64,000 bases of DNA from Eledone cirrhosa (GCA_964016885.1 OZ024755.1:42408001-42472000), one strand, 5' to 3'. Numbered from the stretch's first letter, positions 1 through 17,963 are shown. The notes: generated by a model not told the origin, from the sequence alone. Numbers and translations: made by a program.

Positions 1-585
1 AAATTTCAGGTCTGTTTGGGAACGGAGTTCAAAATTGACCAATGAAAATACAAAAAGTTTTATGCAGTTTGGTGTGTGTATATACATGTAACTAACCCCG
101 TACACATATTTATACAAAGATATATGCTCAACATGCATACGCATGCCAAAAAGATGTATGCAAATACAAAAAATTTAAGGCTAATGTCTCTGTAAGTTTA
201 TAATCCACAGATAAAATGCGTATAGACACATAAATATGAAATAAGTGTATACACATATTCTCATACTCACACATATCCATACACTCACACACACGCGCGC
301 GTATATGCATAAACATACACATAATTACGAACATACATACACACACACACCCCCACACACATATATATGTGGATATAATATTATCATAAGCACATGGATA
401 TTAATTCACTCACATAAACACTGCCACACACATCTAGATCAAGATACAGAAATTAGGTGGGAGGGGGGGAGAGGTCAGTATTCAACTGTTTGGGCAGACT
501 GCTTATTTATAGATGTATCTATAAACTTCGAAATAAAAAGAAAAGAAAAGAAAAAGAAAAAAGAAGAAAGAAGAAATATATCAAG

Positions 586-587
<2 letters not shown>

Positions 588-650
<63 letters not shown>

Positions 651-715
651 CTACACATACAACACACACACACACACATATATAAACATATACATATATA
701 TATATACACACATAT

Positions 716-756
<41 letters not shown>

Positions 757-1131
757 TACACATATATACACACACACATATATAGACACGCATATATATA
801 CACATACACGCACATATACATACACATACATACTTATATACATACAGACATACACATACATACATATATATACACACATATACATACAGACATACATACA
901 TACATACACACATACACACATACATACATACACATACATACTCATACATAGACATAGATATATATTCACCCACACATACGTACTTATATATACGCATATA
1001 TACAAATACTTACGCATCCATATATCGGTATATACATACAAAACACCACTACACTCTCACACAACTCAGACATACAAAGAAAAAGGTATATACATATACA
1101 CATATACACATACAAATAGAGATACATATAC

Positions 1132-1164
<33 letters not shown>

Positions 1165-1925
1165 CATACATATATACAAATACATACGCATCCATATATG
1201 CGTATATACATACAAACACCACTACACTCTCACACAACTCAGACATACAAAGAAAAAGGTATATACATATACATATATACACACATTAATAGAGATACAT
1301 ATACACATATATATATATATATACACATACATTTATATATATACCCACACACACATACAACCATAAACACACATACAAACACATACATACACACATATAT
1401 ATACATATATATACACACACACAAAAACACACATACACATATATATTTTTACACATACATATACATATATATACATATACACACCTCCACATATATACAT
1501 ATACACATAAGTTATATTATAATAATAAATAATATATATATATACACATACGAAAATATACATACACACATAGATATACATATTTATATACACACACACA
1601 CACACACACTCACATATATATGTGCGCACACGTACATATATACACATACACACATATACACATAAACATATACATGTGCATACATGTACATACACACATA
1701 TACCCACATAGATACGAAGATAGACATATATATAGAGAGACATACATATACATACACATATATACATAGACATACATACACACATATATATACACACAAC
1801 ATACACGCCCACACATATATACACATATACACACATATATATATATATATACACATATATATATACACATGCATATATACACATATATATATATACATAT
1901 ATATATACACACAATCATACATTCT
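588..1925. repeat. Compound (TA)n/(CA)n/(TACA)n microsatellite inside the PLE 3' region, with a ~175-bp internal tandem duplication (~1010-1300); mirrored at ~6620-7947
   Basis: Direct reading; ACACCACTACACTCTCACACAACTCAGACATACAAAGAAAAA occurs at ~1043 and ~1216. Confidence 0.9.
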
Positions 1926-3121
1926 TATTTGCATGCGCATATATGTATTTTATACTCAGATATAAACACCCAAACATATATACACCTACCTACATATATA
2001 TTCTTACATACACGCTTACAAACACAGATGATAATAGTATGGGGGAAAGGGGGGGTGGAGAAGGGGATTATAGTAAATATATGTTTCAAGAAACATAGAA
2101 TATTAATCTGTATTTGGATCTCAATATATGTTTTTACATAGTTTCAGTGTTAGGAAATGCAAGAAATAAGGCAAAATTATGCATTTCAAAATAAGTATAC
2201 CATTAATTATATGTTAACTAAACTAAAGAAAGTTAACATATTGATTTCTAAGGTGTAAATTAGTTAGGTTTATAATATTTGAAGCAGAATTTTGAAGTTA
2301 AATAGTAGTAGAGTATTAATTATAGTATAACTAAATTAAAGTTATTAACGTTATGGTATCAATATTAGGAAATGAATTTAGTAATAGGGAAAAAACAAAT
2401 AAAGTATTACATCGGTAGTAGAATATAAATTATAGGTTAACTAAATTAAAAATTATATATTAATTTCTATAGTATATGTTAATTAGGTATATAATAAATA
2501 AAACAGATATTGTATTTTATCAATAGCAGAATATAATTATATGCAAATAGAAATCAAAATTAATACATATACATATACATATACATACACATATATATAT
2601 ATATATATACACATATACATACATACATACACATACATATACATACATACATATACATATTTTTTCAAAAATTGCAAAGAATATATTAACTAGGTATACA
2701 TCCAAAACACATCCCATTCTATGATTACATGACACTCTGCAATCCGTCTGTATTAGGATACTAATTTTAAGCCAATTAAATTAATTTTTTAGGTTGACTA
2801 AATTTAAAACCAAATTATAAATATATTTCTAAAATGTATATTAATTAGGTCTATAATACTAAAAATTATTTCTCTGTCATTGGATACACGATATTTTGTT
2901 ATATTTTATCTGTAAAGGAATTTTAATAAAGGGTTAAATAAATTAAAATTAATCTATAAATTAAATTACTAAGTATATATTAGTAATATTTAAAGGTTTT
3001 TCACAATTTATGATTACACAATATTTTATATTCTCATCTGTAGTAGAATTTTAATTAAATTAAATTTATAGGTTAACTAACATTTAAATTAAATTATATA
3101 TTAATTTCTAAAATAATGTTA

Positions 3122-4267
3122 TTAATTAGGTTTATAATATTTAAATGTTTTTTTTAGTTTATGATTACACGATATAATTAATTCCTGTCGTTTATTTAAT
3201 AGGATATCCTTAGATTTCATTATTTCAAATAGTTCTTGGGAACATAATCTACATTCATTTCTATTATTTTGATAAGGGGTGGCTCTTTTGAGCACACTCC
3301 AGGTCAAATCATATTCTATATTCTTATTTTTATAACTATTGATTTTTTCTGCTAGAGATGTTGTATTAGCCAGTGCGGCATTTTTAAAACTATGCTTGTG
3401 GGTATTAAACCTTGTCTTAAAATTGTTAGAAGTAGCTCCTATATATGAGCAAATAGAATCTTTAGTTTTAACATTACATTTATAGACTATGTTGTTAACA
3501 AGACAATTCCCTTTTAATGGGCAGTTTGCTTTGTTTCTACAGTTACAACCTTTCGTTAATTCTGTATTTGAGGAGATATTATGGTTAATTTGATGTATTG
3601 GTGGTATACTTATGGTTTTCTTACATTTATATGCATTATAGGCACTTATATTTTGTTTTATGTTATTTGTTGTTGAGTATGAGAATTTAACTGTAGACCT
3701 ATTTAAGATTTGATGGTATTTGTGGTTTGGCGGGAAGTTTTTTTCTAGGATATAAAAAATTTTTTTAGCAATATTATCCTTAATTTGTAAATTAAATGGA
3801 GCATTATACCAAGTAACCCGTCTATTACGGTTTCTATGTTGTTTTTTATTTTTATTATTTTTATAGGTTGTATCGTGATTTTTACTAGGAGGATTAATGT
3901 TAATGATCTCACCACAACCATTTTTAGTTATATTTGTAGATTTAGGTGTTTTATCTTTTTTATTAGGAGTTTTATTATTAATATTTATTAGAGTTGTATG
4001 ATGAGTAGTTTTTTGAGAGTTACTATATTTTATATTAGAAGATTTGGTATTTTGGGGTATAGTGTGGGTGGCATTTAGGTGTGTACTTTTCATTTGGTGT
4101 TTGTTGGTAATATTAGGTTGTATGCTTTTAGTATTTTTAGTAGAAGGTATATATTCTAATCTATTTTTGTGGCCACTTCTATCTAGAGCTTCGTTATAGA
4201 AGGTCGCATTTTTATCAAATACATCTTGGTTAGAAGAAAGGTTAGAAATTCTAAGTGATATATTATA
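3122..4267 (-). CDS. Mirror copy of the Penelope-like GIY-YIG ORF fragment (annotated Met at 4093)
   Basis: 323-aa ORF identical to the + copy except three residues (SKNHD/SKHHD, NKNKKQ/NKNNKQ, KKIFY/KKFFY). Confidence 0.88.
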   Translation of the reverse strand, partial: YNISLRISNLSSNQDVFDKNATFYNEALDRSGHKNRLEYIPSTKNTKSIQPNITNKHQMKSTHLNATHTIPQNTKSSNIKYSNSQKTTHHTTLININNKTPNKKDKTPKSTNITKNGCGEIININPPSKNHDTTYKNNKNKKQHRNRNRRVTWYNAPFNLQIKDNIAKKIFYILEKNFPPNHKYHQILNRSTVKFSYSTTNNIKQNISAYNAYKCKKTISIPPIHQINHNISSNTELTKGCNCRNKANCPLKGNCLVNNIVYKCNVKTKDSICSYIGATSNNFKTRFNTHKHSFKNAALANTTSLAEKINSYKNKNIEYDLTWSVLKRATPYQNNRNECRLCSQELFEIMKSKDILLNKRQELIISCNHKLKKTFKYYKPN

Positions 4268-4274
4268 CCTTGCA

Positions 4275-5420
4275 TATAATATATCACTTAGAATTTCTAA
4301 CCTTTCTTCTAACCAAGATGTATTTGATAAAAATGCGACCTTCTATAACGAAGCTCTAGATAGAAGTGGCCACAAAAATAGATTAGAATATATACCTTCT
4401 ACTAAAAATACTAAAAGCATACAACCTAATATTACCAACAAACACCAAATGAAAAGTACACACCTAAATGCCACCCACACTATACCCCAAAATACCAAAT
4501 CTTCTAATATAAAATATAGTAACTCTCAAAAAACTACTCATCATACAACTCTAATAAATATTAATAATAAAACTCCTAATAAAAAAGATAAAACACCTAA
4601 ATCTACAAATATAACTAAAAATGGTTGTGGTGAGATCATTAACATTAATCCTCCTAGTAAACATCACGATACAACCTATAAAAATAATAAAAATAATAAA
4701 CAACATAGAAACCGTAATAGACGGGTTACTTGGTATAATGCTCCATTTAATTTACAAATTAAGGATAATATTGCTAAAAAATTTTTTTATATCCTAGAAA
4801 AAAACTTCCCGCCAAACCACAAATACCATCAAATCTTAAATAGGTCTACAGTTAAATTCTCATACTCAACAACAAATAACATAAAACAAAATATAAGTGC
4901 CTATAATGCATATAAATGTAAGAAAACCATAAGTATACCACCAATACATCAAATTAACCATAATATCTCCTCAAATACAGAATTAACGAAAGGTTGTAAC
5001 TGTAGAAACAAAGCAAACTGCCCATTAAAAGGGAATTGTCTTGTTAACAACATAGTCTATAAATGTAATGTTAAAACTAAAGATTCTATTTGCTCATATA
5101 TAGGAGCTACTTCTAACAATTTTAAGACAAGGTTTAATACCCACAAGCATAGTTTTAAAAATGCCGCACTGGCTAATACAACATCTCTAGCAGAAAAAAT
5201 CAATAGTTATAAAAATAAGAATATAGAATATGATTTGACCTGGAGTGTGCTCAAAAGAGCCACCCCTTATCAAAATAATAGAAATGAATGTAGATTATGT
5301 TCCCAAGAACTATTTGAAATAATGAAATCTAAGGATATCCTATTAAATAAACGACAGGAATTAATTATATCGTGTAATCATAAACTAAAAAAAACATTTA
5401 AATATTATAAACCTAATTAA
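4275..5420 (+). CDS. C-terminal fragment of a Penelope-like RT/GIY-YIG endonuclease polyprotein (annotated Met at 4449; frame is open back to the palindrome centre)
   Basis: In frame from 4275: YNISLRISNLSSNQDVFDKNATFYNEALDRSGH (PLE RT thumb-like); RNRRVTWYNAPF; CNCRNKANCPLKGNC (CxCx5Cx5C); NIVYKC...YIGAT...FKTRFNTH (GIY-YIG); CRLC..E; LLNKRQE..SCNH. Confidence 0.88.
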   Translation, partial: YNISLRISNLSSNQDVFDKNATFYNEALDRSGHKNRLEYIPSTKNTKSIQPNITNKHQMKSTHLNATHTIPQNTKSSNIKYSNSQKTTHHTTLININNKTPNKKDKTPKSTNITKNGCGEIININPPSKHHDTTYKNNKNNKQHRNRNRRVTWYNAPFNLQIKDNIAKKFFYILEKNFPPNHKYHQILNRSTVKFSYSTTNNIKQNISAYNAYKCKKTISIPPIHQINHNISSNTELTKGCNCRNKANCPLKGNCLVNNIVYKCNVKTKDSICSYIGATSNNFKTRFNTHKHSFKNAALANTTSLAEKINSYKNKNIEYDLTWSVLKRATPYQNNRNECRLCSQELFEIMKSKDILLNKRQELIISCNHKLKKTFKYYKPN

Positions 5421-5922
5421 TAACATTATTTTAGAAATTAATATATAATTTAATTTAAATGTTAGTTAACCTATAAATTTAATTTAATTAAAATTCTACT
5501 ACAGATGAGAATATAAAATATTGTGTAATCATAAATTGTGAAAAACCTTTAAATATTACTAATATATACTTAGTAATTTAATTTATAGATTAATTTTAAT
5601 TTATTTAACCCTTTATTAAAATTCCTTTACAGATAAAATATAACAAAATATCGTGTATCCAATGACAGAGAAATAATTTTTAGTATTATAGACCTAATTA
5701 ATATACATTTTAGAAATATATTTATAATTTGGTTTTAAATTTAGTCAACCTAAAAATTTAATTTAATTGGCTTAAAATTAGTATCCTAATACAGACGGAT
5801 TGCAGAGTGTCATGTAATCATAGAATGGGATGTGTTTTGGATGTATACCTAGTTAATATATTCTTTGCAATTTTTGAAAAAATATGTATATGTATGTATG
5901 TATATGTATGTGTATGTATGTA

Positions 5923-5953
<31 letters not shown>

Positions 5954-5956
5954 GTG

Positions 5957-5987
<31 letters not shown>

Positions 5988-6340
5988 TAATTTTGATTTC
6001 TATTTGCATATAATTATATTCTGCTATTGATAAAATACAATATCTGTTTTATTTATTATATACCTAATTAACATATACTATAGAAATTAATATATAATTT
6101 TTAATTTAGTTAACCTATAATTTATATTCTACTACCGATGTAATACTTTATTTGTTTTTTCCCTATTACTAAATTCATTTCCTAATATTGATACCATAAC
6201 GTTAATAACTTTAATTTAGTTATACTATAATTAATACTCTACTACTATTTAACTTCAAAATTCTGCTTCAAATATTATAAACCTAACTAATTTACACCTT
6301 AGAAATCAATATGTTAACTTTCTTTAGTTTAGTTAACATA
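5365..6340 (+). repeat. Degenerate AT-rich tandem reiterations of the ORF 3' end in the PLE 3' UTR (mirror ~2200-3180)
   Basis: GTGTAATCATAAA-like motif at ~5372, 5523, 5653, 5813; TTATAnACCTAATTAA...TAGAAAT-like motif at ~5405, 5686, 6056, 6275. Confidence 0.65.
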
Positions 6341-7390
6341 TAATTAATGGTATACTTATTTTGAAATGCATAATTTTGCCTTATTTCTTGCATTTCCTAA
6401 CACTGAAACTATGTAAAAACATATATTGAGATCCAAATACAGATTAATATTCTATGTTTCTTGAAACATATATTTACTATAATCCCCTTCTCCACCCCCC
6501 TTTCCCCCATACTATTATCATCTGTGTTTGTAAGCGTGTATGTAAGAATATATATGTAGGTAGGTGTATATATGTTTGGGTGTTTATATCTGAATATAAA
6601 ATACATATATGCGCATGCAAATAAGAATGTATGATTGTGTGTATATATATATGTATATATATATATGTGTATATATGCATGTGTATATATATGTACATAT
6701 ATATATATATATGTGTGTATATGTGTATATATGTGTGGGCGTGTATGTTGTGTGTATATATATATATATATGTGTGTATGTATGTCTATGTATATATGTG
6801 TATGTATATGTATGTCTCTCTATATATATGTCTATCTTCGTATCTATGTGGGTATATGTGTGTATGTACATGTATGCACATGTATATGTTTATGTGTATA
6901 TGTGTGTATGTGTATATATGTACGTGTGCGCACATATATATGTGAGTGTGTGTGTGTGTGTGTATATAAAAATATGTATATCTATGTGTGTATGTATATT
7001 TTCGTATGTGTATATATATATATTATTTATTATTATAATATAACTTATGTGTATATGTATATATGTGGAGGTGTGTATATGTATATATATGTATATGTAT
7101 GTGTAAAAATATATATGTGTATGTGTGTTTTTGTGTGTGTGTATATATATGTATATATATGTGTGTATGTATGTGTTTGTATGTGTGTTTATGGTTGTAT
7201 GTGTGTGTGGGTATATATATAAATGTATGTGTATATATATATATATATGTGTATATGTATCTCTATTAATGTGTGTATATATGTATATGTATATACCTTT
7301 TTCTTTGTATGTCTGAGTTGTGTGAGAGTGTAGTGGTGTTTGTATGTATATACGCATATATGGATGCGTATGTATTTGTATATATGTATG

Positions 7391-7423
<33 letters not shown>

Positions 7424-7800
7424 GTATATGTATCTCTATTTGTATGTGTATATGTGTATATGTATATACCTTTTTCTTTGTATGTCTGAGTTGTGTGAGA
7501 GTGTAGTGGTGTTTTGTATGTATATACCGATATATGGATGCGTAAGTATTTGTATATATGCGTATATATAAGTACGTATGTGTGGGTGAATATATATCTA
7601 TGTCTATGTATGAGTATGTATGTGTATATGTATGTATGTGTGTATGTGTGTATGTATGTATGTATGTCTGTATGTATATGTGTGTATATATATGTATGTA
7701 TGTGTATGTCTGTATGTATATAAGTATGTATGTGTATGTATATGTGCGTGTATGTGTATATATATGCGTGTCTATATATGTGTGTGTGTATATATGTGTA

Positions 7801-7841
<41 letters not shown>

Positions 7842-7915
7842 ATATGTGTGTATATATATATATGTATATGTTTATATATGTGTGTGTGTGTGTGTTGTAT
7901 GTGTAGATGTGTGTA

Positions 7916-7947
<32 letters not shown>

Positions 7948-7948
<1 letters not shown>

Positions 7949-8667
7949 TAACTACTTTTCCCATCTTGACGTTATAGTCGCATATATGTTATAGAATGCC
8001 GTTAGCTTCTTGCTAAAACAATCTCTATACGTCTCATTTATATTTATACTCGGATTCTTTTCCTAGAGTGCTTAAACTATCTGTGACTAATCCCGGTTTT
8101 TTTTTTCATAAAAACTGTGATAATTATTGCTATTTTGCTGAACTCCTTGTAGAGTTTTTTTCAGAATGTATTTGACTGCTATTTCTTGTAAATAAACATT
8201 CACTTCCATCCTGACGTCACTAGCCCCGTTTTTTCCTCATGTGCTTTTTCATAAATACACATGAAGGCGAACTAGCCAGTTTTAGAATTCCCTTTTTCGG
8301 ACTATATTACTGTGAGAGCCCTGGTTTTCTGTTGAGCTCTGCTGATGAATGATATTCCAACCGTGACCATCTCCACTGAAAGTTTTCATGAAATAGTCTT
8401 TTAAGACTATACAGAGCATTTGATGTTATTCCAAATTGAAGGATAAGTGTTTCAAACTTTGTTTTATCATGAGTTAAAGGTCTATAGATTTTTCCATGGA
8501 TTTTACTAAATTCTGTGGATGAATTTGTATCCTGATTCTCTTTTGAGATGAGTTTGAGTTATTTTTCCTAAATCTTTCGTTAACTACTTTTCCCATCTTG
8601 ACGTTATAGTCGCATATATGTTATAGAATGCCGTTAGCTTCTTGCTAAAACAATCTCTATACGTCTC

Positions 8668-8675
<8 letters not shown>
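7948..8675 (+). mobile_element. Non-autonomous retrozyme-like element: 632-bp unit plus ~95-bp terminal direct repeat, containing a type I HHR, inserted in (TA)n
   Basis: TTAACTACTTTTCCCATCTTGACG...GTCTCATTTATAT at 7948-8043 and again at 8580-8675; no ORF; absent from the equivalent (TA)n tract (588-642) of the left arm. Confidence 0.82.
8336..8417 (+). ncRNA. Type I hammerhead ribozyme
   Basis: Stem I GCTCTG/CAGAGC; core CTGATGA (8342-8348); stem II ATGA/TCAT with a 33-nt loop; GAAA (8390-8393); stem III TAGTCTT-tt-AAGACTA; cleavage triplet AUA (cut after 8411). Confidence 0.9.
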
Positions 8676-8706
<31 letters not shown>

Positions 8707-9317
8707 CTTGATATATTTCTTCTTTCTTCTTTTTTCTTTTTCTTTTCTTTTCTTTTTATTTCGAAGTTTATAGATACATCTATAAATAAGCAGTCTGCCC
8801 AAACAGTTGAATACTGACCTCTCCCCCCCCCACCTAATTTCTGTATCTTGATCTAGATGTGTGTGGCAGTGTTTATGTGAGTGAATTAATATCCATGTGC
8901 TTATGATAATATTATATCCACATATATATGTGTGTGGGGTGTGTGTGTGTATGTATGTTCGTAATTATGTGTATGTTTATGCATATACGCACGCGTGTGT
9001 GTGAGTGTATGGATATGTGTGAGTATGAGAATATGTGTATACACTTATTTCATATTTATGTGTCTATACGCATTTTATCTGTGGATTATAAACTTACAGA
9101 GACATTAGCCTTAAATTTTTTGTATTTGCATACATATTTTTGGCATGCGTATGCATGTTGAGCATATATCTTTGTATAAATATGTGTACGGGGTTAGTTA
9201 CATGTATATACACACACCAAACTGCATAAAACTTTTTGTATTTTCATTGGTCAATTTTGAACTCCGTTCCCAAACAGACCTGAAATTTTGAATTGTTGTT
9301 ATTATCAATAAATATAT

Positions 9318-9472
9318 TTCATTATTTCTGAAGACGGCATATATGTGTGTTTGGTATGTATATTTAATCTTGATAGTTTGTATAATTTTGTATAATTTTG
9401 TACATAGATCTGTTGAATGTGCATGCCAATTCTAACACATATATATCCTAGAAACGATCGTTAAATAATGAA
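9318..9472 (+). ncRNA. Type I hammerhead ribozyme with greatly extended stem II (PLE pLTR)
   Basis: Stem I TTCATTATTT/AAATAATGAA (10 bp); core CTGAAGA (9328-9334); stem II GG.ATATATGTGTGTT/AACACATATATAT.CC continued by TGGTATGTA/TGCATGCCA; GAAA (9451-9454); palindromic stem III AACGATCGTT; GUU cleavage triplet. Confidence 0.82.
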
Positions 9473-9669
9473 CTTTTTTTGTTTAATATAAGGAACTGTT
9501 TCATTGTTTTATTCATTATTTGTTTAATATTTTATCTTGACTCTGTATTCCGTTTATCTTTCACCGAAAGTGATTTTTCATTACATCTCTTCTTTCCATG
9601 ATATCCGGAATACATTGAGTTCTTCATACGGATTGGACACTACCGTAAACTCTTGGTAGATTTATCTAC

Positions 9670-10014
9670 ATATATATGTATATATATATATATGTATATA
9701 TATATATGTATATATATGTATATATATATATATATGTATATATATGTATATATGTATATATGTATATATGTATATATATGTATATATGTATATATATGTA
9801 TATATGTATATATATGTATATATGTATATATGTATATATGTATATATATATATATATGTATATATGTATATATATATATAAATGTATATATGTATATATA
9901 TATATATATGTATATATGTATATATATATATATATGTATATATGTATATATGTATATATATGTATATATGTATATATATGTATATATGTATATATGTATA
10001 TATATGTATATATG

Positions 10015-14729: not shown

Positions 14730-14921
14730 GTTTATATGTATATATATGTTTATATGTATATATATGTATATATGTATATATATGTATATATGTATATATA
14801 TGTATATATGTATATATGTGTATATATGTATATATGTATATATATGTATATATATATGTATATATGTATATATATATATATATGTATATATGTATATATG
14901 TATATATATATATATATATGT
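14006..14921. repeat. (TA)n/(TATG)n compound microsatellite
   Basis: Direct reading. Confidence 0.97.
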
Positions 14922-17900
14922 ATGGCCGCCGCTGACACCAGACCAGGTGTCATACCGACAGCCATTACTGGCACCCCAAAAGTCACACCAGTGCTGCTGC
15001 TGAATGTCAGGGGCCTGGTGAAACTCAGCAACATGAGTAAAATTTCCTACCTGGGAGACTTAGCCATAAGCAATCAAGCACTATGCATGGCACTAACCGA
15101 AACGCACCTGACAAGCAGTATAGCAGATGCAGAAATACATATACCGAAATATACTGTATTTCGTTCGGACAGGAAGGAGAGAACTCATGGTGGGGTTGCT
15201 CTGTATATCCGTGAAGATGTCACACCAATTGTACTGTTGACACATTCAAACTCAGTCTGTGACACACTGATAATACATATGAAGCAACTACAGACGGTAA
15301 TATGTGTCACATATCGGCCGCCCGATGACCCCAGTATTGAGGGTAAATTTGAGGATAGCCTAAGTAGGATAGAAGAAGTCCTTGACAAACTGGACCAGGG
15401 TCTCAACATCCTACTGCTGGGAGACTTCAACCTACCAAAGGTCAAATGGCCTGAGGGCCACCTCCTCCCTGGAATGACGTCAATAGAACAGAGACAGACG
15501 GAATCCCTGCTGGCCCTCACACACAGGCTGTTCATGGAGCAAGCAATACTCCTCCCAACAAGAGGCGAAAATGTCCTGGACCTCTGTTTTACAAACAACG
15601 AAGTGCTCATCCACAATGTAAAGGTGACACCAACAATTCTCTCGGATCATAACTTGGTAGAGCTAATGATATGTGGTCCAAGAGAACCAACAGAGACAAA
15701 ACCACCAAGAAGCTCCGGGACGCTATCCAGCCTTAACTTCTACGGGGCTGACTGGAAGAAGATTAAGAGTGAAATCCGGAAGCAAACATGGAGTGCAAAC
15801 ATCGCCACACAAGACACTAACACACAATTTCAACACTTCATGACAACGATACACACCATATGCAAAAAGTGTGTCCCGGAGAAAGAGGCAAACAGACACA
15901 AAAATCTTATTCCCAGAGATAGGAAAATCCTTATGAGACGTAGAACTAAACTCTCAAACCAGTTGAATAGTCAACAAAACCAAAACAAGAAGGAATCCTA
16001 TTTGAAACGTGCACTACTTGACACCGAGATTGCACTCAAGCTTTCACATGAGAATGAGAGGGCAAGGAAAGAGAACAGGGCCATAGAAAACATTAAAACA
16101 AACCCTAAGGCCTTCTTTAAATTTGCAAAAGAAACTGCCTCAGTACACTGCAAGATTGGACCACTCTTCCACACGGACGGTTCATTAACCGAAAATCCCC
16201 AAGAGATATGTGAAATACTGAACGAACAGTACAAAAGTGTCTTCACATGTCCACTGAGGCACATGCAAATAACGAAGCCAGAGGAGTTCTTTGATGCCAC
16301 AACACTACATCAAGAAATGGCAACCATCAACCACATAGACATAACGGAGGAGGATGTGGTGTACGCCATTGATGAAATTAGAACAGACTCGGCTGCTGGA
16401 CCTGATGGATTCCCAGCAGTTCTCCTAAAAATATGTAAGCGGGCCTTAGCAACTCCACTGAAGATGCTCTTCAGAAGCTCCTTGGCTAGCGGTGTACTAC
16501 CCAGGGAGCTGAAAGAAGGCACAATATGCCCTATCCATAAAGGAGGTAGTAGAGCGGAGGCCAAGAACTATAGGCCAGTCTCCCTGACGTCGCATATCAG
16601 TAAGGTCATGGAGCGAGTTGTCAGAAAGAAACTAATCACTTTCCTCGAAGAAAATGACCGCCTGACTAGCACGCAACATGGCTTCCGCCCAGGAAGAAGC
16701 TGCCTTACACAGCTGCTACATCACTACGACTGGGTACTGAGACAGCTACTAGACAGCTCACTTGTAGACGTGATATATCTTGACTTTGCGAAGGCCTTTG
16801 ACAAGGTCGACCACGGAATGATATGTCACAAACTACACGGACTCGGCATAACTGGAAAAGTAGGTGAGTGGCTGCATGGCTTCCTGAGGGACAGAAGCCA
16901 GGCAGTCGCAGCAAATGGGGCCCTCTCGAGGGAGACACCGATAACAAGTGGGGTGCCTCAGGGGACAGTCCTGGGACCACTACTGTTTTTGGTGGCTCTC
17001 TCGGACATGCCCTCTGTGGTGCAAGCAACAACATCCCTCACTAGCTTTGCTGATGACACTAAGGTAGCACAGGCAATCAAAAACCCGGCTGACGCTGCCC
17101 TCTTACAGCAGGATCTGGATGCCATATACAGATGGGCGGAAGAAAACAACATGCAGTTTAATGCTGGCAAATTCCAAGCCCTACAATACAAACCTGCAAA
17201 CACAAACACAAATATAGCGGAACGCAGCTACACAGGACCAGGAGGGACCGATATCCCCGTGTCAAAATCGATACGAGACCTGGGCATAGACATGAGCGAT
17301 GATGCATCTTTTTCTTCACACATCATGAAGGTGGCGACAGCATGTAGACGATTCGCTGGCTGGATCTTGAGGACTTTCCTTACAAGAGATCGAGACACCA
17401 TGTTGACACTGTGGAGGACTTTTGTCCTAAGCCGCCTGGACTACTGCTCCCAGCTGTGGTCACCCCATAGTGTCAAACTAACCACAGAGCTTGAGGCAAT
17501 CCAGCGAAGCTACACCAAGAGGATTGCCAAGATGAGGGAGACAAGCTACTGGGAGAGGCTGAAGGAACTGAACCTCTACTCCTTGGAGCGAAGACGGGAG
17601 AGATACGCAGTGATCTACATGTGGAAAATCCTGGAGGGACTAGCACCAAACTTTGGCATTGGGAGCTGGACCAACTGTAGAACAGGACGTCACTGTGTGG
17701 TGCCAAAGGTCCCGTCTTCCACATCTAGAATAAGGAGCAGGTATTGCAATAGCCTGGGATTCAAGGGCCCTCAACTCTTCAACAGGCTGCCGAGGCATCT
17801 GCGAGACTTGCATGACGTGGAGGTGGATGTCTTTAAGAAACATCTCGACACCTTGTTATCCAGGATCCCGGATGAGCCCACAGCAAGACACGAGGGAAAC

Positions 17901-17963
17901 CTAAGGGCAGCAGCAACAAACTCCCTCCTACACCAGTGGCCAACCTGTACAGGCTGGAGATAA
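14922..17963 (+). CDS. LINE ORF2: apurinic-like endonuclease + reverse transcriptase (1013 aa; the first 298 aa of the 1311-aa track ORF are translated microsatellite)
   Basis: EN motifs LNVRGL, TETHL, GGVALY, YRPP, GDFN, PTR..N.LDL, SDH; RT motifs [58 protein letters not shown]; C-terminal [10 protein letters not shown]; no stops or frameshifts. Confidence 0.96.

What the first reader, a model, noticed from the sequence alone, without database searches (positions are those of the whole stretch)
1..9288. >9 kb foldback of two head-to-head Penelope-like copies joined at the same truncation point by a 7-nt loop
Seen: both arms start at the same nucleotide inside the RT-thumb coding region and diverge outward from CCTTGCA. 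Known: Penelope-like elements often insert with an inverted 5'-truncated copy. Inference: arms of >4 kb with almost no spacer suggest the cDNA 3' end snapped back (AT-rich TATTATA/TATAATA) and primed a full second copy. The arms differ by substitutions (3 amino-acid changes), microsatellite lengths and a 730-bp insert, which argues for a real, aged genomic palindrome rather than a read chimera.
Basis: partly seen in the sequence, partly recalled or inferred. Interest (0 to 1): 0.75.

Follow-up and report, generated by a model that had tools for sequence, protein, structure and literature searches.

The report
Mirror-image jumping-gene insertion, two-ended
This 9.9-kb palindrome is one dead insertion of a Penelope-like jumping gene whose family usually inserts as two head-to-head copies, and its many relatives in the genome suggest that each cut end of the chromosome likely started its own DNA copy rather than one copy folding back on itself.

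Summary
The palindrome is real in the assembly and larger than reported: window -246 to ~9672, arms 99.7% alike, a 7-nt centre, and a 735-nt retrozyme inserted in one arm. It is one insertion of a young, Hydra-like Penelope element; both arms lack the RT core. Head-to-head insertion is the family norm (44 of 60 sampled stretches). One arm ends at a 'short' site, the other 137 nt further; either can be the longer arm (28:26); the two arms share one template; joints show 1-7-nt overlaps or fillers. Near-symmetric joints are uncommon but in excess (4 of 64, 0.4 expected), so a shared broken RNA end, a stop hot spot or snap-back remains possible here. No read spanning this loop was found. The architecture is in print; I found no paper giving the two-cDNA reading. 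This scan's notes reached similar readings in other genomes.

The parts
1..4267 (-). Left arm: 5'-truncated element copy from element position 1447 to the 'short' 3' end (6003); continues 247 nt upstream of the window (G000:C15:42407754-42408000), with the mirror hammerhead, into (TA)n
3122..4267 (-). Truncated ORF of the left arm (thumb remainder, N/K/T-rich linker, CxCx5C, GIY-YIG); no RT core
4268..4274 (+). Centre CCTTGCA: templated element sequence belonging to the right arm; base 4267 (A) is shared by both arms
4268..9672 (+). Right arm: 5'-truncated copy from element position 1439 to the 'tail' 3' end (6140)
4269..5420 (+). Truncated ORF of the right arm (residues ~430-813 of the 813-aa protein); CxCx5C 4995-5021, IVY..YIG 5052-5105, CxxC 5289-5300, CxH 5373-5381
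5421..9320 (+). Long microsatellite-rich 3' untranslated region, carried by other family copies too
7948..8671 (+). Later insertion, right arm only: 629-nt-unit tandem element (1.15 units) in a (TA)n run, with a type I hammerhead fold at 8336-8417 (retrozyme-like); at least 2,352 candidate matches in the genome
9318..9472 (+). Type I hammerhead fold of the pLTR (CTGAAGA 9328, GAAA, palindromic stem III, predicted cut after 9462, very long stem II)
   Evidence: (z -5.4); no Rfam hammerhead hit
9321..9321 (+). Position where at least 1,753 arms in the genome begin; probable RNA 5' end (inferred)
9535..9535 (+). 'Short' 3' end site (element 6003), used by the left arm
9536..9672 (+). One-sided 'tail' of 134-137 nt, present only on the right arm
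9670..9681 (+). 12-nt target-site-duplication candidate in the (TA)n/TG target, matched at the left end; low-complexity, so weak alone

Best explanation
The palindrome is one head-to-head insertion of a Penelope-like element, likely made when both 3' ends of a staggered cut in a (TA)n repeat each primed a cDNA on the same element RNA and the two cDNA ends were then joined. Shown: one insertion with the family's two fixed 3' ends, one on each arm, a 1-nt overlap at the joint, arms from one template, a later retrozyme insertion in one arm. Inferred: one cut end starts reverse transcription at the 'tail' site (element 6140), the other at the 'short' site (6003); each cDNA stops on its own; host end-joining fuses the two cDNA 3' ends and each serves as template for the missing strands. 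Here both stopped within 8 nt, probably because the RNA was broken or the enzyme stalls there.
For: Geometry: 41 of 52 joints with both outer ends called have one end of each type; 9 more run on into a tandem unit, 1 holds a nested copy, 1 (L034) has two short ends. In 30 short insertions picked for a tail arm, the partner ends at the short site in 29. Either arm can be longer: 28 vs 26 of 54 assigned joints (often only one outer end was fetched and the other inferred). Joints: 28 of 64 overlap by 1-7 nt, 8 are blunt, 28 have fillers of 1-96 nt. Both arms run to the same wall at 9321: at most 7 nt kept before the core in 29 of 30 for each arm, tail arm longer 9, short arm longer 9, equal 12; 8 of 30 are perfect palindromes with no loop. 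An extra G (template has C) precedes 29 of the first 100 of 1,753 arms starting there, and appears on either arm, as a copied cap would. One template: arm-to-arm distance median 1 vs 10 to other copies (16 pairs) and 2 vs 32 (21 pairs); this window's arms share one variant not seen in 83 other arms. Raw reads of another study show both 3' ends followed by (TA)n and a strand-switch joint at 9320/9321. In vitro, a PLE protein nicks and extends both target strands and starts RT at two internal sites that bound the tail (PMC11167929).
Against: No biochemistry for this family. Near-symmetric interior joints are in excess over independent stops (4 of 64 within 10 nt, 0.41 expected, p 0.0007; 3 of 63 without this locus, p 0.006), though among the 19 other joints with both arms in the ORF only 1 is within 10 nt (0.22 expected, p 0.2): this needs the added 'shared RNA end or stop site' step. 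This locus's own joint (7-nt loop, one A:T) fits snap-back too. Shared variants between arms could come from copying or from gene conversion, and 2 of 16 pairs were distant (L086 14, L093 66 differences). Some of the extra G's can come from the partner arm. 15 of 60 sampled stretches have no inverted arm.
Confidence: 0.62

Rival explanations
1. Snap-back at this locus: the tail-primed cDNA ended at element 1439, folded over a 7-nt loop on one A:T pair and was copied back to make the left arm, which was joined to the other target end at the short site.
For: The tail arm is the longer by exactly loop plus one base; loop size is sterically fine; near-symmetric joints are in excess; C2hh has a 6-nt filler that looks templated by a brief fold-back; arms share a private variant.
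Against: One base of closure and no predicted hairpin. The other three near-symmetric interior joints do not fit simple snap-back: L049 has no overlap, L052 would need a 1-nt loop, C2hh needs untemplated bases. Cannot be the family rule (28:26; zero-loop palindromes). Unrelated copies stop at 1439 and 1446 too (L110, L119).
Confidence: 0.2
2. The insertion was first longer or asymmetric, and a later central deletion, hairpin-capped break or conversion between arms produced the near-perfect centre.
For: Long palindromes are prone to central rearrangement (established knowledge, recalled); several family joints have extra jumps next to the centre (L022, L029, L084, L090, L123).
Against: Such repair usually lengthens the spacer rather than shortening it (recalled). 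Both arms keep private differences, so conversion has not been complete.
Confidence: 0.08
3. Self-priming of an antisense RNA, as proposed for PLE palindromes (PMC3846280): the antisense transcript folds at its 3' end and is copied into the second arm.
For: Published interpretation of palindromes at inverted PLE joints; explains head-to-head orientation and one template.
Against: Predicts a loop and a fixed longer arm; neither holds. Does not explain two different fixed outer ends or a G added at the sense 5' end.
Confidence: 0.06
4. Foldback read or assembly artefact, or two haplotypes joined.
For: No contig from four public runs bridges the loop; the four substitutions nearest the centre are all private changes to A beside A-runs in the left arm and could be consensus errors; a 200-N gap lies 13 kb away.
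Against: The arms end at two different family-specific sites with different flanks; a 735-nt retrozyme sits in one arm only; each arm has private changes, one a CpG decay; the centre is templated and the layout is the family norm, seen in raw reads for short copies.
Confidence: 0.03

Closest known systems
EN+ Penelope-like insertions with an adjacent inverted 5'-truncated copy, one-sided tail and TSD (PMC3846280; PMC8557442)
   Same: Head-to-head layout, one-sided tail, partial tandems, AT-rich target, TSD of about 8-12 nt, palindromic joints.
   Different: Tail is 134-137 nt, not 30-40; arms here are 4.5 kb; the papers invoke self-priming or endonuclease resolution, whereas this family's counts favour two primed cDNAs.
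Hydra clade of C-terminal EN+ PLEs (PMC8557442, section 11)
   Same: DKT, CxCx5C linker, no CCHH, CxxC and CxH near the C-terminus, hammerhead, (TA)n target.
   Different: RWR instead of RWK; unit is 6.1 kb (paper: generally under 3 kb) through a ~3.5-kb microsatellite-rich 3' UTR, with an N/K/T-rich stretch between thumb and linker. Not placed on a tree.
Anolis Poseidon PAc in vitro (PMC11167929)
   Same: Two internal RT start sites bounding the tail; both target strands nicked and extended; AT-rich target.
   Different: Sites are adjacent there and 137 nt apart here; in the main text read, the authors do not explain inverted copies by joining two cDNAs.
LINE-1 twin priming (recalled, no call)
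   Same: Both target ends prime on one RNA; joint with microhomology.
   Different: LINE-1 gives an inversion without duplication, from a chance internal site; here both primers start near the 3' end at fixed sites and the same sequence is copied twice.
Non-LTR retrozymes (10.64898/2026.07.22.740005)
   Same: The 735-nt insert: non-coding tandem unit with a type I hammerhead fold.
   Different: New family member; 9 of 10 copies examined have a TA-rich run directly upstream and none was seen to start with an inverted arm.

Membership tests
EN+ Penelope-like element | Single ORF with RT and C-terminal GIY-YIG endonuclease | tested here: met
   813-aa ORF in full copies with YRDD at 346 and IVY..YIG at 692-709; motif names recalled; Pfam gave no hit; 119 homologs at up to 48% identity, none named by a source
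EN+ Penelope-like element | Partial tandems forming pLTRs, inverted 5'-truncated copy, one-sided tail | tested here: met
EN+ Penelope-like element | Hammerhead motif in the pLTR | tested here: met
   Type I fold with both core motifs; Rfam models did not hit; cleavage not tested
EN+ Penelope-like element | RT phylogeny with PLEs | not tested
   No reference set was fetched
Hydra clade | DKT in place of DKG | tested here: met
   DKT at 115
Hydra clade | RWK motif | tested here: inconclusive
   RWR at 37-39
Hydra clade | CxCx5C linker; CCHH absent; CxxC and CxH around the terminal E/N | tested here: met
   CNCRNKANC 673, CRLC 771, CNH 799; one Cys pair pattern of CCHH not seen by eye in IVY..YIG
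Hydra clade | Insertion into (TA)n | tested here: met
Hydra clade | Placement in the Hydra branch of the RT/EN tree | not tested
   Supplementary alignments of PMC8557442 were not read; filed as Hydra-like only, also because the unit (6.1 kb) is longer than the 'generally <3 kb' described
Non-LTR retrozyme (the 735-nt insert) | Tandem non-coding unit with a type I hammerhead in each unit | tested here: met
   629-nt period in many loci, hammerhead fold; self-cleavage and circular RNA not testable here

The most novel reading that the evidence does not exclude
Penelope-like elements integrate by double-ended target priming: the protein uses both ends of its cut, one fixed RT start site for each, and copies a single RNA twice by strand displacement, so that long near-perfect palindromes like this one record the 5' end of one broken RNA molecule. 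This one rule would account for the inverted copy, the one-sided tail, the TSD and the hundreds of mini-palindromes starting at a capped 5' end.
Probability: 0.45. Interest if true: 0.7.

Novelty: new member of a known kind. Interest (0 to 1): 0.45.

Why it matters
How PLEs make their tandem/inverted structures is named as open in PMC8557442 and PMC11167929. This family is young, abundant (6,745 exact hits of one 26-mer) and has two start sites far enough apart to label each arm, so the two-cDNA model can be tested from sequence and in vitro. It also shows that 9-11-kb near-perfect palindromes (this one; C2hh, 5.7-kb arms) can persist long enough to collect mutations and new insertions, and should not be discarded as assembly errors.

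Tried and rejected
Logan contigs of four runs (2 samples) on 4225-4800 showed no joint across the loop; they differ from this genome at many sites and drop rare forms, so no verdict. No RNA holder listed. Rfam gave only microsatellite-driven miRNA hits below threshold. Pfam gave nothing for the ORF or three homologs. An early impression that the tail arm is always the longer in 3-8-nt offsets (7 of 7 cases by eye) was not borne out in 30 oriented short insertions (9:9:12). No base preference around 90 truncation points; their clustering (42 pairs within 8 nt vs 26, p 0.005) includes paired arms and is partly circular. A pattern scan for stops at 1437-1447 gave 7 hits, 2 from this locus and 1 that looks like a small deletion: at most a mild hot spot. 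The whole-window self-BLAST was swamped by a satellite and its output was cut. PMC9977147 passages held nothing relevant. No structure or complex prediction was run.

Full report
1. Observation. The reverse complement of 1-4267 aligns to 4275-9288 with 4,248 matches, 13 substitutions, 7 small indels in simple repeats and a 735-nt insert in the right arm. The window is G000:C15:42408001-42472000, inside a 45-Mb contig of a 3.0-Gb genome. The mirror continues exactly for 247 nt upstream and holds the mirror hammerhead 30-184 nt before the window start. The joint 29-mer is unique in the genome.

2. The element. Full copies elsewhere have an 813-aa ORF (RWR 37, DKT 115, YRDD 346, CxCx5C 673, IVY..YIG 692, CxxC 771, CxH 799). 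These match the motifs that PMC8557442 gives for the Hydra clade (section 11 read; passages; supplements not read). I used a natural copy, L028:2897-9036 (6,140 nt), as ruler. The pLTR folds as a type I hammerhead at 9318-9472 (z -5.4). One 26-mer of it has 6,745 exact hits, one 26-mer of the inner UTR 234. Both arms here begin near codon 430 and lack the RT core: the insertion is dead.

3. The centre. Full copies read ...TTAAAAACCTTGCATATAAT, so CCTTGCA is templated. The right arm starts at element 1439, the left at 1447, sharing one A. The cDNA ending at 1439 has no stable fold. Two unrelated solo copies stop at 1439 and 1446 (L110, L119).

4. The outer ends. The left arm ends at element 6003 (window equivalent 9535), the right at 6140 (9672), both in (TA)n, with a 12-nt TSD candidate; four informative short insertions give 8, 4, 12 and 10 nt. 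The 137 nt between the two sites is the one-sided PLE 'tail'. Raw RAD-seq reads of another study show 343-443 reads per run leaving at 9535 into (TA)n, 168-218 carrying the far end, and a strand-switch joint at 9320/9321 in one run (4 reads, 3 starts).

5. Real or artefact. The 735-nt insert is a separate, abundant tandem element with a 629-nt unit, a fixed 3' end, (TA)n targets and a hammerhead fold, i.e. retrozyme-like (definition from 10.64898/2026.07.22.740005, part 1 of 5 read). It is in one arm only. Of six testable unique-sequence differences, four are derived in the left arm and two in the right (the seventh site could not be scored). With different canonical ends and different flanks, a foldback artefact is very unlikely. 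No read across this loop was found.

6. The family. I fetched copies from an identity search and from position-ordered pattern lists. In the 60 stretches L083-L142, 44 have an inverted partner, 15 are solo and 1 is a tandem continuation; pairs were somewhat over-sampled (all 13 new pairs, 47 of about 62 single hits). One search called 94 joints; I dropped 30 (4 unresolved, 9 with gaps over 100 nt in microsatellite, 17 at the 9321 wall). Of 64: tail arm longer 28, short-end arm longer 26, 10 unassigned; 28 overlap by 1-7 nt, 8 blunt, 28 with filler; 4 within 10 nt (0.41 expected by shuffling, p 0.0007), 6 within 30 nt (0.90). Among 20 joints with both arms in the ORF: 2 within 10 nt (0.23, p 0.02), 4 within 30 nt (0.49, p 0.0009); without this locus 1 and 3 of 19 (p 0.2, 0.011). 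End types are one of each in 41 of 52, with 9 tandem run-ons, 1 nested copy and 1 exception. Arms of one insertion are far closer to each other than to typical other copies (medians 1 vs 10 and 2 vs 32), often with private shared variants, also when the short-end arm is the longer; L086 and L093 are outliers.

7. The short class. 864 insertions consist of two pLTR arms meeting at 9321. In the first 30, both arms stop at the same wall, with no directional bias (9:9:12), 8 are loop-less perfect palindromes, and an untemplated G or its complement appears on either arm; 29 of the first 100 of 1,753 arms starting there have G (counted by eye). I infer a capped RNA 5' end reached separately by two cDNAs; some G's may come from the partner arm.

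8. Mechanism. If both 3' ends of a staggered cut prime cDNA near the RNA 3' end, the top strand reads flank, TSD, antisense copy, joint, sense copy, TSD, flank: exactly head to head (inference). Two fixed start sites give one arm of each end type; independent stops give either arm longer; end-joining gives the overlaps and fillers; one RNA gives near-identical arms and, when the RNA ends, near-symmetric joints. PMC11167929 (parts 1-2 of 4 read) shows in vitro that a PLE protein nicks and extends both strands and starts at two internal sites bounding the tail. One cDNA folding back cannot make a short-end arm longer than a tail arm, nor supply the tail from a short-end cDNA. For this locus alone, snap-back on one base pair remains possible (0.2).

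9. Known or new. The layout is in print: PMC3846280 (passages and Discussion read) describes palindromes at inverted joints and proposes antisense self-priming; PMC8557442 describes the inverted copy and tail. Seven library searches found no paper giving the two-cDNA join for PLEs; subscription papers and the supplements of these papers were not seen and may hold it. This scan's earlier notes on other genomes reach similar readings; I looked them up after forming mine and did not test them.

10. Verdict. Real; a new member of a known kind; the locus is an uncommon, near-symmetric case of the family's normal insertion. Its value lies in the family statistics, which make a specific integration model testable. 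Interest 0.45.

Noticed in passing
G000:C2:345114633-345126230 (L016+L017): A second long palindrome of the family: arms of 5.7-5.9 kb starting at the same base, 6-nt centre AGACCA that looks copied from the arm itself; 8 substitutions between arms.
   Followed up: partly
genome-wide; e.g. L143-L172: At least 864 mini-palindromes of two pLTR arms (about 570 nt) meeting at the probable RNA start, each with two back-to-back hammerheads.
   Followed up: partly
window 7948-8671: Abundant 629-nt retrozyme-like family targeting (TA)n; the 10 copies examined are direct partial tandems, none seen with an inverted arm, unlike the host element.
   Followed up: partly
L029:3347-3471; L022:3018-3119; L084:6144-6287; L123:2136-2490: Joints with extra short element pieces from template jumps; L029 has a local inversion meeting its partner within 6 nt, like twin priming.
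   Followed up: no
L092, L105, L106, L135 (tandem starts at element 5933-5970): Several tandem copies begin just 3' of the predicted hammerhead cut (element ~5930), others well upstream of it, hinting at both cleaved and uncleaved or circular templates.
   Followed up: no
L011/L012, about 8.1 to 1.7 kb upstream of the window start: Two tandem copies of a different Penelope-like family (YVDD RT, Cys-rich linker, GIY-YIG with His pair).
   Followed up: no
window ~14900-17960, +: Intact-looking LINE ORF (endonuclease plus RT, FADD motif) inside a (TA)n run.
   Followed up: no
window 22361-64000: 200-N gap followed by a 44-bp satellite array that runs to the window end.
   Followed up: no
window 3880, 3845, 3760, 2785: The four substitutions nearest the centre are all left-arm changes to A (element sense) beside A-runs, while the outer ones are right-arm changes; mutation bias or consensus error, unexplained.
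   Followed up: partly
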